Assembly (NCBI GenBank): GCA_965261595.1
Contig: CBDHDG010000006.1
Coordinates: 1,696,001 to 1,760,000 of the forward strand
Direction of reading: 5' to 3'
Source: a bacterium
Lineage (GTDB): Bacteria; UBA8248; JACPRG01; G963555815
Length of the DNA: 64,000 nucleotides
This document shows positions 6,029-10,464 of the stretch, one piece after another; position 1 is the first letter of the stretch; the number at the start of each line of letters is the position of its first letter. The notes beneath the pieces were generated by a model that was given only the letters and a program-made list of their open reading frames with translations, was not told the origin of the DNA and did not search any database. A program made the translations under genes and the position numbers.

Positions 6029-7114
6029 ATGAGTGGAAAGATCCGCGTTTTGATCGTTGAGGATTCAGCTTTGGAGCGTTTCCTCCTCTGTGAGATTCTC
6101 TCCCAAGAGCCCGACATCGAGGTGGTCGATGTCGCGCCGGACGCCGATCGCGCCCGAAATAAAATGCGAATTCATAAGCCCGACGTTCTGACGCTGGACG
6201 TGAAGATGCCGGGCGAGGACGGCATTGCCTTCCTCACCGGGCTTATGTCCACGGACCCTCTTCCGGTCATCATGGTCAGCGCGTTCACCCTGGCGGGAGC
6301 GAAGACCACGCTGTCCGCCCTCGAGAAAGGCGCGGTGGATTTCGTCGCGAAACCCGATGGCAGCAAAGATGAAGATCTTGAAGTGTTCCGGCGGGAGCTC
6401 ATCCGGAAAGTGCGCGCCGCCGCCACGGCCCGTATGGGGCGGCATCCCCGGCCGGTCCCGACCCACGCGCCGGCGGAGCTGCCGGAAACACCGGGATTCA
6501 TCGTTGCGATTGGAACCTCGATGGGAGGTCCGGAAGCGTTGAGGAGTCTTCTTCCGAGACTTCCGGCCAATTTTCCGGCGATTCTGCTCGTCCAGCATAT
6601 GCCGGAGTACTTCACCCAGGCCATGGCCGAGAGCCTGGATAAGATCTGCGCCATCCACGTGAAGGAGGCGGAACAGGGCAAACCCGTCCTACCGGGTCAG
6701 GCGCTCATTGCTCCGGGAAATTGCCACATGGAGTTGCGGCGCCTGGGAACCCGCTATTATGTGGAGATTCACAAAAACCCCCGGGTGCGCGGGTTCCGGC
6801 CTTCTGTGGATGTGTTGTTCGAGTCTGTGGCCCAATACGCGGATTTGGACACCATAGGGGTCATCCTGACGGGGATGGGCTCGGATGGGGCGAAGGGCAT
6901 CTCCCGGACGAAGGCCGCCGGCGCGTACACCATTGCCCAGGACGAGGCAAGCTCTGTCATCTTCGGCATGCCCAAACAGGCCATCGCGACGGGGGCCGTC
7001 GATATCGTGCTTCCTCTCGAGGGAATCCCCGGCCATCTCATTAAAGCGATGCAAAGGGCAGGGGCGCCCTTGAAGAAGCCGGCCGGATCGCCGTTGGTCG
7101 CAGCGAGAACCTAG
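6029..7114 (+). CDS. cheB: Chemotaxis response regulator protein-glutamate methylesterase
   Basis: N-terminal REC (PDVLTLDVKMP) plus methylesterase triad motifs GTSMGG, QHMP and TGMGSDG; also FRPSVDVLF. Start taken at MSGKIRVLIV after AAAGGA. Confidence 0.93.
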   Translation: MSGKIRVLIVEDSALERFLLCEILSQEPDIEVVDVAPDADRARNKMRIHKPDVLTLDVKMPGEDGIAFLTGLMSTDPLPVIMVSAFTLAGAKTTLSALEKGAVDFVAKPDGSKDEDLEVFRRELIRKVRAAATARMGRHPRPVPTHAPAELPETPGFIVAIGTSMGGPEALRSLLPRLPANFPAILLVQHMPEYFTQAMAESLDKICAIHVKEAEQGKPVLPGQALIAPGNCHMELRRLGTRYYVEIHKNPRVRGFRPSVDVLFESVAQYADLDTIGVILTGMGSDGAKGISRTKAAGAYTIAQDEASSVIFGMPKQAIATGAVDIVLPLEGIPGHLIKAMQRAGAPLKKPAGSPLVAART

Positions 7115-7221
7115 TGCTTATTTGCGAAAATTAGCATCTTCTCAAAGGCGGCAAATTGCCAATAAAATTCAGTCAAAATTGCCCAAAAATTAATACGCGA
7201 ACTTTTGCAACCAAGCACTAG
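7111..7221. mobile_element. MITE-like element 1 (AT-rich, about 110 bp) bounded by CTAG
   Basis: Left end CTAGTGCTTATTTGCGAAAA versus right-end reverse complement CTAGTGCTTGGTTGCAAAAG; no coding capacity. Confidence 0.7.
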
Positions 7222-7374
7222 TGTCGCGTCCCGGAAATAAATTCACGATTTCCGAACCTCCTCAAAGTAGGGCGCCACCGGCGGTTTGCCCGCCAGCGCC
7301 TCATTTTTCGGGAAATCCAAAGGGCATCCTGTCACCTGATATTTATTGAAAGGATTTCTGAGACGCGACACTAG
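7218..7374. mobile_element. MITE-like element 2 (about 157 bp) bounded by CTAG
   Basis: Left end CTAGTGTCGCGTCCCGGAAAT versus right-end reverse complement CTAGTGTCGCGTCTCAGAAAT (19/21); shares the central CTAG with element 1. Confidence 0.78.
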
Positions 7375-7500
7375 GCCAAGTCATTCCCCCTTCTTTCGGA
7401 CAGGTTGTTGTCCCACACCGAGTTGACAAGATGAAGAAGGCTTGGCTTTTCTCTTTGTGAGAAACGCAGCCTCACCCGCCGTGTCGCTTGGACCCGGCAC

Positions 7501-7777
7501 GGGCTCCGCGCGCGCGCGGGGGGGGGGCCACCGACGCCAGCACAGAGAGCACTGATCGAGGGGCTCCGCGCGCGCGCGGGGGGGGGGCCTCTAAGCCCCC
7601 CAGCCCGTCTATCATGCGGCCGGCTCCGCGCGCGCGGGGGGGGGACGATCGCGGCCTTTCTTTTCTCAAAGGTTCCAATGGCTCCCCCCGCGCGCGCGGG
7701 GCGCGCGCGCGGGGGGAGCCCTGGCCAAATCTCTATCTCAGGTGACATAATGGGCTCCGCGCGCGCGGGGGGGGGCC
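7501..7777. CRISPR. Orphan CRISPR-like array: 5 repeats and 4 unique spacers, type I-E-like geometry, atypical G-rich repeat
   Basis: GGGCTCCGCGCGCGCGCGGGGGGGGGGCC (29 nt) is identical at 7501 and 7561, with variants at 7621, 7680 and 7752. Spacers are unrelated to each other and 31, 31, about 32 and 31 nt long. No cas gene recognised in the window. Confidence 0.68.
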
Positions 7778-7960
7778 TCACGGAACTGACCGGAAGCCGC
7801 GCGGAGCGCAGCGCGAGGCCTCGTGAAGGGGCATGTGTAGAGTCGATTAAATTGTTGTATGCTTGGATGATGTGACGCCACGCTGGAAACTGCTTCTCCT
7901 CATGGGGGGAAGCCGTTTCCCGATGTCGGGAAACCCAGGGGCCCTGCTGAAAGGGGGTAG

Positions 7961-9634
7961 GTGGTGTTGTGGATCATTTTGGCGATCGTGTTTGTCGTGG
8001 CCGCGCTTGCGATTCCTCGAAGGTTTCCCGATCCATCGGCAAAGAACGCCATCAGGGTGGTGTGCGGAATTCTCGCCCTGTTCCTCGTATTCTCCACCTC
8101 ATACGTGCATGTCGGGGCCGATGAGGTCGGCCACCTCAAGAAAATTTATTTCGGGCGGTCACTGCCGCCGGGAAAGATCATCGCCGTAAACGGAGAGAAA
8201 GGACCCCAGGCGGAGATCTTGCCGCCGGGTTTCCATTTCCGGCCCTTGCTCAACATCATTTACGATGTCGAGAAAAGGCCGATCATCGAAATTTCTGCAG
8301 GGAAATACGGATTTCTTACGGCAAGGGACGGCCGTCCGCTGAGAAAGGAACAATTTTTCGCGGAAGGATGGCCGGAGGTGGAATTCGTCCAGATGGCTCA
8401 GGATGCGGCGCAATTCATCAAGAAAGGGGGGCAGAAGGGACCTCAGCTCACGGTGCTGAAACCGGGACGATACCGGGTGAATCAGTACCTGTTCGAAGTG
8501 AAGCTGGACGTTGCGACGAGTATCGCGCCCGGCACGGTCGGCGTGGTCAAGTCCAACGTCCAGGAGCGGAAAGAGTGCAAACCACTGAAAACCGGGGGTG
8601 AAGGTGCGCTTTCGGCGCCTCTGGTGCCGAAATTCTGCATCGGCGTGTGGAACGAGCCCCTCTTTCCCGGAAAGTATTATCTAAACCGCAGCGCCTATGA
8701 AGTCACAATCATCAGCACCCGGGTGCGTGCATGGACGTATAAGGGGGGATACACGAAGCGCAGAATCGACCTCACCCTGGATCAAGAGGGCAAGATTTCC
8801 CAGAGCTTAAGGAGCGTGGGGATTCCCGTCCCGCAGAACGCGGCCGATTCCGCAATCCTGATCCGGGTCGAAGGCTGGGAGATTCCCCTGGAGCTTCGGG
8901 TCCTGGTGCAGATTGCGCCCGAAAACGCCCCGTTCGTCGTCGCCTCGGTCGGCGGCCTGGATAAGGTCGAGAATGCTGTCCTGACCCCGGCGCTGCGAAG
9001 TGTCGTCAGAAATGTCCTGGGCGCGAAGGGGCGGAAGGTCCTGGAGCTTCAGGACCAGCGGGCCGATCTCGAGGCCCTGGTCGAGTCGAAGATCCGGCCC
9101 GAAGGCGGGAAGGCCGGCATCTCCATCAACGAAGTCCGCTTTGCCGACCCCGTCATTCCGCCGGTGCTCCTGGTCACTTGGCGCCGTGAGCAGCTCGCCG
9201 AGCGACTCAGGCGAACCTACCAAAGAGAGCAGGCCGCGCAAGAGGAACGCATCAAGACCGAAAACACAAGGGCGCGGGCCGATAGACAGTCGCAGATCGT
9301 CGGGGCCGAGATTGCGGTGAAGGTGGCCGAACAGCGAAGGCAGGCGGCGAAACTGGAAGGCGAAGGCGAGAAGCTTCGCCTCCTGGAGATCGCCGCCGGC
9401 CAGCGGGCGCAGGTCGATGTGCTGGGAAAGGACCGCGTGTTGCAGTTGGCCCTGCTCGAAAAAATGCTCGCCGCCGCCGTAAAGAATCCGGCGCTGGTTA
9501 AGGTTCCCAACGTCCTGGTGCAGGGTGGGGGAGGAGGCCTCGCGGGCGCCGCTGCCATCCTTGGTCAGAGTAATCTGGTGCAGGGATTGGTCCGCCGCGC
9601 TCCGGTCGAAGGCTCCCCCACGAGGAAGAAGTAA
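7961..9634 (+). CDS. SPFH (band 7/flotillin-like) domain membrane protein
   Basis: Two N-terminal TM helices, repeated GEKGPQAEILPPG / GQKGPQLTVLKPGRY / LFPGKYYLN units, an SPFH core and a C-terminal Ala/Glu coiled coil. Confidence 0.85.
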   Translation: MVLWIILAIVFVVAALAIPRRFPDPSAKNAIRVVCGILALFLVFSTSYVHVGADEVGHLKKIYFGRSLPPGKIIAVNGEKGPQAEILPPGFHFRPLLNIIYDVEKRPIIEISAGKYGFLTARDGRPLRKEQFFAEGWPEVEFVQMAQDAAQFIKKGGQKGPQLTVLKPGRYRVNQYLFEVKLDVATSIAPGTVGVVKSNVQERKECKPLKTGGEGALSAPLVPKFCIGVWNEPLFPGKYYLNRSAYEVTIISTRVRAWTYKGGYTKRRIDLTLDQEGKISQSLRSVGIPVPQNAADSAILIRVEGWEIPLELRVLVQIAPENAPFVVASVGGLDKVENAVLTPALRSVVRNVLGAKGRKVLELQDQRADLEALVESKIRPEGGKAGISINEVRFADPVIPPVLLVTWRREQLAERLRRTYQREQAAQEERIKTENTRARADRQSQIVGAEIAVKVAEQRRQAAKLEGEGEKLRLLEIAAGQRAQVDVLGKDRVLQLALLEKMLAAAVKNPALVKVPNVLVQGGGGGLAGAAAILGQSNLVQGLVRRAPVEGSPTRKK

Positions 9635-10029
9635 CCTGGATTTCGCAGGACCCGTTTTTTTTTGCTGCCGGACGCCAATTCGCAGGTTGCGGAAAAACCG
9701 CCCACGCGGGGAGATTTCCAGAACGCCTCGTTTTCAGGATGTAGCGCGGCTCCTTGCGGGCGCCCGTGAGGGCTTGCTCTGCCATCGCTGGAAAGGATCA
9801 ATGAATCGGTGGGTGACCCTCCCAACGCAAAAATCGGGCGGACGCGGGGTCAACCGACCCTCGGCCTTCTCCCCCCCAAGGAGTCGCAATCCCGAAGGAT
9901 TCGTATCCGAAAAGGTCCGACGGTCCTGAGGAAGATCGTTTTTCAGCACCCCGCGAGTACGGATTCCTCGCCGGCCCCTTACACAGGGTTCGGGTCGGCC
10001 GTTGGCCGGCTCACCGGAATGACACAGAG

Positions 10030-10464
10030 TCAGGTTCTGCGCGACCCCTGCGGCCGGTATGCGATCTTGGGCCACCGGGTCCACGGTTCCTCTTCGAACC
10101 GGACCCGGCCGAGGGACTTCAGGTTTTCCAGGACGGCCCGGGTCTCGCGGACGAAGGCCGGCAGGTCGATGGGGACGTCGGGGTCGCCCAGAACCTCCAG
10201 CTTGGAGAGTCCTTTCTGGAGGTTCAAGACGGCCGGCGCGTGCCACACCTTCTGAATCTTGACGAATCCGGCCGCGACCTGAATCAGGCCCTGATAGAAG
10301 AGCCGCTCGGTCGGGTTTCCCTCCCGCCAGAGGTCTTCCCAGGCTTCGTGGGATTCCCAGTATTCGCCGCCGTTGAAAAGCGCCACCCCTTCCCGCGCCC
10401 GGCCGGGGAACGAGATGGGGTCGTCGTAGACCTCCCGGTTTTCCGGTTTTGAGCGTTCAGGCAA
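10030..10464 (-). CDS. DUF309 domain protein
   Basis: LFNGGEYWESHEAWEDLW...YQGLIQVAAG signature. Confidence 0.85.
   Translation of the reverse strand: MPERSKPENREVYDDPISFPGRAREGVALFNGGEYWESHEAWEDLWREGNPTERLFYQGLIQVAAGFVKIQKVWHAPAVLNLQKGLSKLEVLGDPDVPIDLPAFVRETRAVLENLKSLGRVRFEEEPWTRWPKIAYRPQGSRRT

What the first reader, a model, noticed from the sequence alone, without database searches (positions are those of the whole stretch)
7501..7777. Orphan array of ultra-GC, poly-G CRISPR-like repeats with unique 31-32-nt spacers
Seen: five repeats at 7501, 7561, 7621, 7680 and 7752, the first two identical (GGGCTCCGCGCGCGCGCGGGGGGGGGGCC, only one non-G/C base). Four unrelated, normal-complexity spacers of almost constant length separate them. 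The repeat can fold as 3 nt + 7-bp stem (CTCCGCG/CGCGGGG) + 4-nt loop + 8-nt tail. Known: 29-nt repeats with a 7-bp stem and 4-nt loop, about 32-nt spacers and an 8-nt handle are the type I-E layout. Unusual: the handle is a G run instead of ATAAACCG-like sequence, the CG-dinucleotide count varies, and no cas or nuclease gene lies in the 64 kb. Inference: a decayed or miscalled I-E array used in trans, or a different guide/repeat-spacer RNA system. Base-calling error towards G after hairpins is a real possibility because other long G/C runs occur in the window.
Basis: partly seen in the sequence, partly recalled or inferred. Interest (0 to 1): 0.82.

Follow-up and report, generated by a model that had tools for sequence, protein, structure and literature searches.

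The report
Stray CRISPR mini-array with G/C repeats
This is a real five-repeat CRISPR-style mini-array lying far from any cas gene; its odd G/C-only repeat keeps the core of the bacterium's own type I-E repeat and its spacer content differs between strains, so it was most likely built by the cell's own spacer-inserting enzymes at an unusual site.

Summary
Five copies of a nearly G/C-only repeat lie at 7502-7776, unique to this locus in the 6.17-Mb genome. Delimited as GGCTCC...C, they are separated by four unrelated inserts of exactly 33 nt.

It is not a base-calling artefact. Contigs from other studies reproduce repeats 1 and 5 letter for letter.

The genome holds a complete type I-E cas operon with a 44-repeat array on another contig, plus a second cas1-cas2 pair. 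No other Cas1 was found.

The mini-repeat matches the resident I-E repeat at 17 of 29 positions: 14 of 18 in the palindromic core, 3 of 11 outside it.

Other samples carry the same site with one repeat and no insert, or two repeats and a different 33-letter insert. Insert 1 recurs exactly, over just its 33 nt, in a separate non-array contig in three samples.

Best reading (about 0.6): an off-site, leaderless I-E-format array made by the resident Cas1-Cas2, of the "neo-CRISPR" kind. Whether it guides interference is untested.

This scan reached similar readings on other genomes before.

The parts
7502..7528 (+). Repeat 1 (27 nt, GGCTCC-(GC)5-G10-C), identical to repeat 2. The presumed newest, 'leader-side' copy.
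   Evidence: Reproduced with 0 differences in X7 contig record 21 (7000-7528) and with 1 difference over 7000-7524 in X12 record 6.
7529..7561 (+). Insert (spacer unit) 1, 33 nt, GC 0.64.
   Evidence: Exactly these 33 nt lie in separate non-array contigs: X4 record 18 (516 nt, 0 differences), X7 record 27 (372 nt, 2 differences), and also in X12. No second copy in the own genome.
7562..7588 (+). Repeat 2 (27 nt).
7589..7621 (+). Insert 2, 33 nt, GC 0.67.
   Evidence: No match in the own genome or in viral contigs.
7622..7646 (+). Repeat 3 (25 nt): one GC unit shorter, and G-to-A near the end.
7647..7679 (+). Insert 3, 33 nt, GC 0.45.
   Evidence: No match found.
7680..7719 (+). Repeat 4 (40 nt). 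With base 7720 it forms a perfect 41-nt palindrome, containing a 13-nt tandem duplication (7689-7714). It carries CCCCGC-GCGC-GCGGGG, the resident I-E stem arms with a different loop.
   Evidence: I7; 19-bp hairpin, -47.9 kcal/mol, z -7.47.
7720..7752 (+). Insert 4, 33 nt, GC 0.45.
   Evidence: Present with repeat 5 in a low-depth X4 contig (record 19, 7691-7796, 0 differences). No match elsewhere.
7753..7777 (+). Repeat 5, the terminal copy: (GC)4-G9-CC.
   Evidence: Reproduced in X7 record 21 and X4 records 14, 19 and 20.
7376..7501 (+). Sequence upstream of repeat 1. It is not a canonical leader: it has no IHF-consensus site, and part of it (7390-7464) is a fragment of a dispersed element.
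   Evidence: 0 strict IHF matches in 7115-7960, against 1 in the C7 leader; 7390-7464 also matches C2:238279-238355 and G001:C110.

Best explanation
The locus is a genuine CRISPR-type array in type I-E format. It was built and later extended away from any cas locus by the genome's own I-E adaptation enzymes (two intact Cas1-Cas2 pairs, on C5 and C7).

The substrate is a G/C-only palindromic sequence in the cheB-SPFH intergenic region. It mimics the palindromic core and the 5+16+8 geometry of the resident I-E repeat.

Each integration would add a 33-nt unit and duplicate about 27-28 nt of the target. This is the 'neo-CRISPR' or off-target integration mechanism known from E. coli.

Shown here:
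- the array is real;
- all inserts are 33 nt;
- the repeat resembles the resident repeat mainly in its core;
- repeat and insert number differ between samples;
- there is one exact protospacer-like match;
- I-E Cas1-Cas2 are the only adaptation genes found.

Inferred:
- Cas1-Cas2 made it;
- the left side is the growing end;
- its transcripts may be cut by Cas6e and loaded into Cascade. I rate that at about 0.3, given the non-canonical G-rich handle.
For: 1. Real sequence. A contig of X1 matches the whole 7000-8100 stretch with 0 differences, though X1 may be the source sample. Contigs from two other studies reproduce repeat 1 (X7, X12) and repeat 5 (X7, X4).

2. Insert size. Four inserts of exactly 33 nt, and X7's alternative insert is also 33 letters (table 5c). 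From memory, 33 bp is the unit integrated by E. coli I-E Cas1-Cas2. The resident array has a 61-nt period, 29 + 32.

3. Repeat likeness. The mini-repeat matches the resident repeat at 17 of 29 positions in the natural register: 14 of 18 in the palindromic core and 3 of 11 outside. Permutation p is 4e-4 overall and 5e-5 for the core. Only 7 of 11,098 GC-rich genomic 29-mers reach 17. [quoted passage not shown]

4. Allelic series in Logan contigs:
- X4 record 14 joins 7508 to 7758: one repeat, no insert, depth 15.2.
- X7 record 21 joins 7528 to 7752 through 33 other letters: two repeats, depth 14.1.
- The window and X1 have five repeats.
- X4 record 19 carries insert 4 plus repeat 5 at depth 4.08.

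5. Protospacer-like match. Insert 1 recurs over exactly 7529-7561 inside contigs with non-repeat flanks in X4, X7 and X12. It does not recur in any of the 5 contigs laid from X1 other than the array itself, nor elsewhere in the genome.

6. Available machinery. There is a complete cas3-cse1-cse2-cas7-cas5-cas6e-cas1-cas2 operon and a second intact cas1 and cas2. The Cas1 family search finds only these two genes.

7. Precedent. Off-target integration that spawns arrays is known from E. coli (Nivala et al. 2018, seen only through citing passages).

8. Related cases. Of the 5 comparable short arrays found in other genomes, 4 sit in genomes with an I-E Cas7e elsewhere.
Against: - First base of the inserts. 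It is C, C, G, C (and A in X7). Every resident repeat ends in G, as expected for a PAM-derived G. The one protospacer flank reads ..AA then C, not AAG.
- Period and repeat length. The period is 60, 60, 58 and 73 nt, not 61, and the duplicated part is 27 nt rather than 28.
- No canonical leader. There is no IHF-consensus site or recognisable leader upstream. That fits off-target integration but removes a defining feature.
- Fold. The repeat's MFE fold is not the I-E hairpin and is no better than shuffles (z -0.46).
- Thin support for the alleles. Each allele rests on one Logan contig in one run. The one-repeat allele could be a deletion product, not the ancestral empty site.
- Only one protospacer. 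Just 1 of 4 inserts has a counterpart, and I could not see that contig beyond 30 letters per side.
- No genome-wide signal. There is no excess of direct repeats at 60-62 nt spacing elsewhere in the genome.
- No expression or processing data.
Confidence: 0.6

Rival explanations
1. Relic of an older, once-canonical type I-E array, for example from a lost second locus. A single surviving repeat drifted to G/C-only sequence before being re-used by Cas1-Cas2. The repeat would then be homologous to I-E repeats rather than a native look-alike.
For: The core identity of 14 of 18 and the matching 5+16+8 register could reflect descent. This genome already shows I-E locus decay to single repeats on C7. 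Copy 4 carries the exact resident stem arms CCCCGC/GCGGGG.
Against: No cas remnant lies on contig C6 and there is no leader-like IHF site. 8 of the 11 positions outside the core differ. The orthologous SPFH upstream region in G006 has no such element, although synteny is not kept there. This rival still needs integration at a non-canonical repeat, so it differs from the best explanation only in where the first copy came from.
Confidence: 0.2
2. A mini-array carried by a mobile element, which borrows the host's I-E machinery to fight competing elements, as in virus-borne mini-CRISPR arrays.
For: Two of the look-alike mini-arrays in other genomes lie beside mobile-element genes: L025 beside a phage integrase, an AAA ATPase and an AEP primase; L027 beside a phage capsid protein. 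In the window, a MITE-like element and an IS-end fragment lie just upstream. Virus-borne mini-arrays are known (PMC8616872, passages).
Against: The neighbours here are cheB and an SPFH/Band-7 gene, followed by amidohydrolases, an ABC transporter and uvrA. There is no integrase, capsid or replication gene. The flanks 7000-7500 and 7780-8100 are conserved in all four laid runs. Known mini-arrays have repeats identical or very similar to the host's, whereas this one matches at 17 of 29. The repeat-pair pattern gave 0 hits in viral contigs.
Confidence: 0.07
3. Not CRISPR-related. Candidates are a cluster of REP/BIME-like palindromes, tandem terminator hairpins, or a 60-nt minisatellite whose linker parts have diverged.
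For: The repeat is a palindrome whose ends pair. Its (GC)n and G(n) tracts vary in length as in slippage-prone DNA. The genome is rich in long G and C runs.
Against: The repeat is unique to this locus, whereas REPs are dispersed. The linkers share only 5-11 of 33 positions, and TRF finds no 60-nt period. All linkers are exactly 33 nt. A different 33-letter linker sits in X7, and linker 1 has an exact copy in foreign-context DNA. The terminator scan found 0 sites.
Confidence: 0.05
4. A repeat-spacer guide RNA system of another, unrecognised kind with its own processing and effector proteins.
For: The handle-equivalent is a G run and the repeat is far from the resident consensus. No Rfam family matches the region; the best E-value is 0.21, to miRNA models.
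Against: No candidate genes are linked to it. The insert size and geometry are those of I-E. 4 of the 5 genomes with similar arrays have I-E elsewhere. Rfam silence is uninformative, because it also misses the canonical array.
Confidence: 0.03
5. Sequencing or assembly artefact: G-biased miscalls of a canonical repeat.
For: Homopolymer and (GC)n lengths differ by 1-2 units between copies. The period is 60 rather than 61. The window's own run has low depth, 4.9.
Against: Repeats 1 and 5 are reproduced without differences in contigs of other studies at depths of 14-26. G and C runs are symmetric genome-wide. 12 positions would all have to be miscalled identically in each copy.
Confidence: 0.02

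Closest known systems
Neo-CRISPR loci from non-canonical (off-target) spacer integration by E. coli type I-E Cas1-Cas2 (Nivala, Shipman and Church 2018, Nat Microbiol 3:310). The paper is not held and is known here only from citing passages.
   Same: Spacer-sized inserts are flanked by duplicated copies of a repeat-length target. The locus lies far from the cas genes, an I-E integrase is present in the genome, and repeated rounds give a small array.
   Different: This is a natural population, not an over-expression experiment. It has four rounds at one site plus alternative alleles in other samples. The target is a G/C-only palindrome that keeps the I-E core. One insert has a co-occurring protospacer-like match. 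Integration by Cas1-Cas2 is inferred, not observed.
Canonical type I-E CRISPR array of the same genome (C5:1084182-1086835, 44 repeats, beside cas3...cas2).
   Same: 29-nt repeat register of 5 + 16-nt palindromic core + 8, with 14 of 18 core positions identical. Unique inserts of 32-33 nt.
   Different: Overall repeat identity is 17 of 29. The tail is G-rich instead of ATGAACCG. The period is 60, not 61. There is no adjacent cas gene and no IHF-type leader. The insert's first base is not G. Copy lengths vary.
Virus- and provirus-borne mini-CRISPR arrays (Faure et al. 2019 and Medvedeva et al. 2019, as summarised in PMC8616872, passages read).
   Same: A very short orphan array that would depend on a host system in trans. 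An insert matches co-occurring DNA.
   Different: No mobile-element genes lie next to it. Its repeat is not near-identical to the host repeat.

Membership tests
Type I-E CRISPR array | Direct repeats of about 29 nt separated by unique spacers of about 32 nt (33-bp integrated unit, 61-nt period) | tested here: inconclusive
   The inserts are exactly 33 nt in 4 of 4 cases, and 33 letters in X7. But the period is 60, 60, 58 and 73, and repeat lengths are 27, 27, 25, 40 and 24. The resident array has period 61.
Type I-E CRISPR array | Repeat sequence of the I-E consensus or of the resident system | tested here: not met
   17 of 29 positions are identical to the resident repeat, and the 8-nt tail matches at only 2 positions.
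Type I-E CRISPR array | Palindromic core (7-bp stem, 4-nt loop) at repeat positions 5-22 | tested here: inconclusive
   14 of 18 core positions are identical. A shifted 7-bp stem is possible, but the MFE pairs the repeat ends instead, at z -0.46. The resident repeat folds as expected, z -3.15.
Type I-E CRISPR array | Adjacent cas operon, or an AT-rich leader with an IHF site | tested here: not met
   There are no cas hits on contig C6 and 0 IHF-consensus sites in 7115-7960. The neighbours are cheB and an SPFH gene.
Type I-E CRISPR array | Spacers derived from foreign DNA next to an AAG-type PAM | tested here: inconclusive
   1 of 4 inserts has an exact 33-nt counterpart in non-array contigs of 3 runs, with flank ..AA + C. 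There are no hits in phage or plasmid references (best E 3 and 0.7), in viral contigs or in metagenome contigs (insert 1 only).
Type I-E CRISPR array | Transcription, then Cas6e cleavage into crRNAs with an 8-nt 5' handle | not testable with these tools
Neo-CRISPR / off-target Cas1-Cas2 integration | A spacer-sized insert flanked by a duplication of repeat-length target DNA, outside a canonical array | tested here: met
   The locus is unique in the genome and lies on a different contig from both cas loci.
Neo-CRISPR / off-target Cas1-Cas2 integration | A matching integrase in the same genome | tested here: met
   There are two intact I-E cas1-cas2 pairs. Their activity is not testable here.
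Neo-CRISPR / off-target Cas1-Cas2 integration | Unoccupied or less-occupied alleles of the same site in sister strains | tested here: met
   A one-repeat contig in X4 and a two-repeat contig in X7. Each rests on one contig, and the polarity (ancestral or deletion) is unresolved.
Neo-CRISPR / off-target Cas1-Cas2 integration | The duplicated target is native, non-CRISPR DNA | tested here: inconclusive
   There are no other copies in the genome and none in the 40 relatives searched. The G006 ortholog region lacks it, but synteny is broken there.
Mobile-element-borne mini-array | Lies inside a phage, plasmid or integrative element, with a repeat near-identical to the host's | tested here: not met
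   no mobile-element genes within about 20 kb; 17 of 29 identical.
REP/BIME palindromic elements | Many dispersed copies per genome | tested here: not met
   All 4 exact matches and all 5 loose matches lie in this locus.

The most novel reading that the evidence does not exclude
A CRISPR array caught while being born and already in use. A native G/C palindrome was adopted by the I-E integrase. It keeps gaining spacers without a leader or IHF site. Its transcripts, which carry a poly-G handle instead of the canonical one, are still processed and loaded into Cascade, and they exclude a co-occurring mobile element. In the four runs laid, the sample whose array holds insert 1 shows no target contig, while the three samples with the target show arrays without insert 1.
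Probability: 0.2. Interest if true: 0.75.

Novelty: new member of a known kind. Interest (0 to 1): 0.45.

Why it matters
How new CRISPR arrays arise is known mainly from one over-expression experiment in E. coli; natural examples were described as circumstantial (bioRxiv 10.1101/148544, passages).

This locus offers a natural allelic series at a single site: one, two and five repeats. It also has a candidate source for its newest insert and the presumed integrase in the same genome. Two questions therefore become testable with a few amplicons and one biochemical assay:
- Can I-E Cas1-Cas2 seed and extend an array at a leaderless look-alike palindrome?
- How much repeat divergence do Cas6e and Cascade tolerate?

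It also gives a practical warning. Array finders and annotators would either miss this locus or call it an artefact because of its G/C-only repeat.

Tried and rejected
- Rfam. An E-value search of 6500-8500 gave only 4 weak miRNA/lncRNA hits (E 0.21-0.97). A gathering search of the canonical cas-array locus also gave 0 hits, so Rfam cannot judge CRISPR membership here.
- Reference phages. 4 records, best E 3. Reference plasmids: 25 records, best E 0.7. All are chance-level.
- Exact searches of inserts 1-4 in viral contigs gave 0 each. Insert 1 in metagenome contigs gave 0.
- Insert 1 with up to 3 mismatches matched only the own genome among the 51 genomes of the class, which is also the whole phylum sample.
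- The repeat-pair pattern gave 0 in viral contigs. In metagenome contigs it gave only two contigs of another, very GC-rich organism with a different repeat tail and 64-66-nt spacing.
- A genome-wide histogram of exact direct repeats at 35-110 nt spacing shows no peak at 60-62 outside the two known arrays.
- phmmer of the eight resident Cas proteins against ORFs of all 22 fetched look-alike loci gave no hit.
- Promoter and terminator scan: 2 promoter-like sites (one inside insert 4) and 0 terminators, which is not informative.
- Orthologous site. G001 (same genus) has no SPFH match. G006 has the SPFH gene but a different upstream region, so no outgroup state was obtained.
- Parts of the array without cover in X4, X7 and X12 (7592-7665) are not evidence of absence on their own.
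- The Nivala 2018 and Nunez 2015 papers are not held.
- X7's alternative insert and the flanks of the protospacer-like contig were not searched further, because they are not held as a locus.

Full report
**1. Observation**

The stretch 7501-7777 holds five copies of a repeat made almost entirely of G and C. Copies 1 and 2 are identical.

- The 15-mer GGCTCCGCGCGCGCG, with up to 2 mismatches, occurs 8 times in the window, 7 of them in this locus. 100 dinucleotide shuffles gave a mean of 1.48, and none reached 8.
- In the whole 6.17-Mb assembly (7 contigs) the repeat is found only here: 4 of 4 exact and 5 of 5 loose matches.
- The locus lies in an 846-nt gap. A cheB-type methylesterase ends at 7114 and an SPFH/Band-7 gene starts at 7961.

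**2. Anatomy**

Take each repeat from GGCTCC to the first C after the G run. The copies then measure 27, 27, 25, 40 and 24 nt. The four inserts are all exactly 33 nt: 7529-7561, 7589-7621, 7647-7679 and 7720-7752.

- The inserts are unrelated to one another, 5-11 of 33 identical. TRF sees no 60-nt period. So this is repeat-spacer architecture, not a diverged minisatellite.
- Length differences between copies lie in the (GC)n and G(n) tracts.
- Copy 4 carries a 13-nt tandem duplication that makes it a perfect 41-nt palindrome. It folds as a 19-bp hairpin with z -7.47.
- The ordinary copies do not fold better than shuffles (z -0.46). That hairpin remains possible.

**3. Not an artefact**

Logan contigs of four runs were laid on 7000-8100.

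- X1, which may be the window's own source, matches the whole stretch with 0 differences.
- Runs from other studies reproduce repeat 1 (X7 record 21; X12 record 6).
- They also reproduce repeat 5 with its flank (X7 record 21; X4 records 14, 19 and 20) at depths of 14-26.
- Long G and C runs are over-represented in the genome, but symmetrically: runs of 12 or more number 51 G and 61 C, against about 4 expected. That does not fit a G-specific calling bias.

**4. The genome has type I-E CRISPR-Cas**

- A simple scan found a 44-repeat array at C5:1084182-1086835 with a 61-nt period.
- Immediately upstream lie cas3, cse1, cse2, cas7, cas5, cas6e, cas1 and cas2, all with strong Pfam matches.
- A second, partial locus on C7 keeps an intact cas1 (312 aa) and cas2, a cas6e fragment and a single repeat. 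It sits beside type I restriction-modification genes.
- The Cas1 family search finds only these two genes.

**5. Relation of the mini-repeat to the resident repeat**

In the register set by the repeat borders, 17 of 29 positions are identical: 14 of 18 in the palindromic core (positions 5-22) and 3 of 11 outside.

- Permuting the mini-repeat gives p = 4e-4 for the whole and 5e-5 for the core.
- Of 11,098 equally GC-rich 29-mers of the genome, 7 reach 17 identities.
- Both repeats have the layout 5 nt + 16-nt core + 8 nt.
- Copy 4 contains the exact resident stem arms CCCCGC/GCGGGG with a different loop.
- The region upstream of the mini-array has no IHF-consensus site. The C7 leader has a perfect one, and the C5 leader a near one by eye.

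**6. Population evidence**

- X4 record 14 (3,585 nt, depth 15.2) joins 7508 directly to 7758. That is one repeat and no insert.
- X7 record 21 (3,962 nt, depth 14.1) runs from 7528 through 33 other letters to 7752. That is two repeats and a different insert.
- The window and X1 have five repeats.
- A low-depth X4 contig (record 19, depth 4.08) carries the right half of copy 4, insert 4 and copy 5 unchanged.

So the flanks are constant while the repeat and insert content varies, as in an active array.

Two caveats apply. Each form rests on one contig. The one-repeat form could also arise by recombination between copies 1 and 5, because its repeat body is of the copy-5 type.

**7. A candidate protospacer**

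Exactly the 33 nt of insert 1 (7529-7561) lie inside separate contigs whose flanks are not the repeat.

- X4 record 18 is 516 nt with 0 differences at depth 21.9. X7 record 27 is 372 nt with 2 differences. A similar piece occurs in X12 (tables 7 and 8).
- The match ends precisely at the borders of the insert that were deduced from the repeats alone.
- The own genome has no second copy. None of the 5 contigs laid from X1 shows one, though contigs cannot prove absence.
- The upstream flank ends in AA, and the insert's first base is C.
- From memory, E. coli I-E uses AAG, with the G carried into the array. All resident repeats here end in G. The inserts instead begin with C, C, G, C (and A in X7). 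This is the main point that does not fit canonical, PAM-guided acquisition.
- No source was found for inserts 2-4 or in any reference collection.

**8. Similar loci elsewhere**

A scan of genome contigs for two copies of GGCTCCGCGCGCG 40-55 nt apart gave 20 loci.

- By inspection, most are ordinary tandem repeats.
- Five (L016, L017, L025, L027, L032) are short arrays of 3-5 repeats with unique inserts and 60-62-nt spacing.
- None has an I-E cas gene within 10 kb by phmmer. Yet 4 of the 5 host genomes carry an I-E Cas7e elsewhere.
- In the 3 genomes where the canonical array was fetched, it has an ordinary I-E repeat that differs from the mini-array repeat. The best local likeness is again in the core.
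- Two of these mini-arrays lie beside mobile-element genes.
- The shared 13-mer was imposed by my search pattern, so these loci show only that such off-site I-E-format arrays are not unique to this genome.

**9. Interpretation**

The most economical reading is that the resident I-E Cas1-Cas2 integrated 33-nt units at a leaderless palindrome that mimics the core of its own repeat, duplicating it each time.

- Off-target integration giving rise to new arrays is documented for E. coli over-expressing Cas1-Cas2. Natural evidence was called circumstantial (Nivala et al. 2018, not held; citing passages).
- I cannot tell whether the first copy was native DNA or a drifted relic of an old I-E repeat.
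- Identical copies 1 and 2, and the exact present-day match of insert 1, suggest that the left side is the growing end.
- Whether the transcripts are cut by Cas6e and used by Cascade is open. The tail that would become the 5' handle is GGGGGGCC, not ATGAACCG.
- The pattern 'insert 1 present, target not seen' in X1, against 'target present, insert 1 not in the array' in X4, X7 and X12, is suggestive of immunity. It rests on four runs of contigs.

**10. Standing**

The miscall and decay ideas are not supported.

The thing belongs to a known kind, the off-site or neo-CRISPR array. It is a good natural example with unusual sequence features.

Earlier notes of this scan reached the same kind of reading on other genomes. 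They are unchecked AI notes, and I did not use them as evidence.

Noticed in passing
window 7215-7375: A MITE-like element of about 160 nt with terminal inverted repeats (CTAGTGTCGCG.../...CGCGACACTAG; I5). One search found at least 9 further full or partial copies in the own genome and 3 in the same-genus genome G001. The stretch around 7185-7221 reaches summed contig depths of 1129 (X7) and 891 (X12), against about 14-26 for the flanks.
   Followed up: partly
window 7390-7464: A short dispersed segment also found at G000:C2:238279-238355 and G001:C110. Its 3' part resembles the sequence next to a transposase gene start upstream of the SPFH ortholog in G006 (read by eye), so it may be an IS-end fragment.
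   Followed up: partly
whole genome; window 32901, 39600, 41938, 43651: There is a strong, strand-symmetric excess of long G and C homopolymers. Runs of 12 or more number 51 G and 61 C, against about 4 expected from base composition. The window holds C17 at 32901 and C18 at 43651. This could be real biology or homopolymer error; it was not examined.
   Followed up: no
L017 9929-10139; L025 5298-5571; L027 9928-10253; L032 9996-10161; L016 about 9988-10204: Short orphan arrays (3-5 repeats, 60-62-nt spacing, unique inserts) occur in five unrelated genomes. Their repeats begin with GGCTCCGCGCGCG and differ from the resident I-E repeat, and 4 of the 5 genomes hold I-E Cas7e elsewhere. L025 lies beside an integrase, an AAA ATPase and an AEP primase. 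L027 lies beside a phage capsid gene.
   Followed up: partly
L036 33-133 and 1102-1330; L037: Two metagenome contigs of a very GC-rich organism carry two mini-arrays flanking about 1 kb of other sequence. The repeat is GCCGGCTCCGCGCGCGCGCATGGGGGGCGAC at 64-66-nt spacing.
   Followed up: no
G000:C7:1011000-1027000 (L051): A second, partial I-E locus with an intact cas1 and cas2, a cas6e fragment and a single repeat, which recurs in mirror image about 12 kb away. It sits next to type I restriction-modification genes, with hsdR in two ORFs, and an IS1595-family transposase. Already noted by this scan.
   Followed up: partly
G000: C3:34612, C4:34650, C6:1024479, 1277183, 1337462, 1549274, C7:70985, 1341691: An identical 35-nt GC hairpin context (TGCGCCAACCCCGCCTCCGGCGGGGTCCTCCTCTT) recurs at 8 or more places. 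It is probably part of a multi-copy element.
   Followed up: no
G000:C4:425186-425381: Four tandem 60-nt units, apparently coding, were picked up by the CRISPR-like scan. This is not an array, because the units are similar throughout.
   Followed up: no
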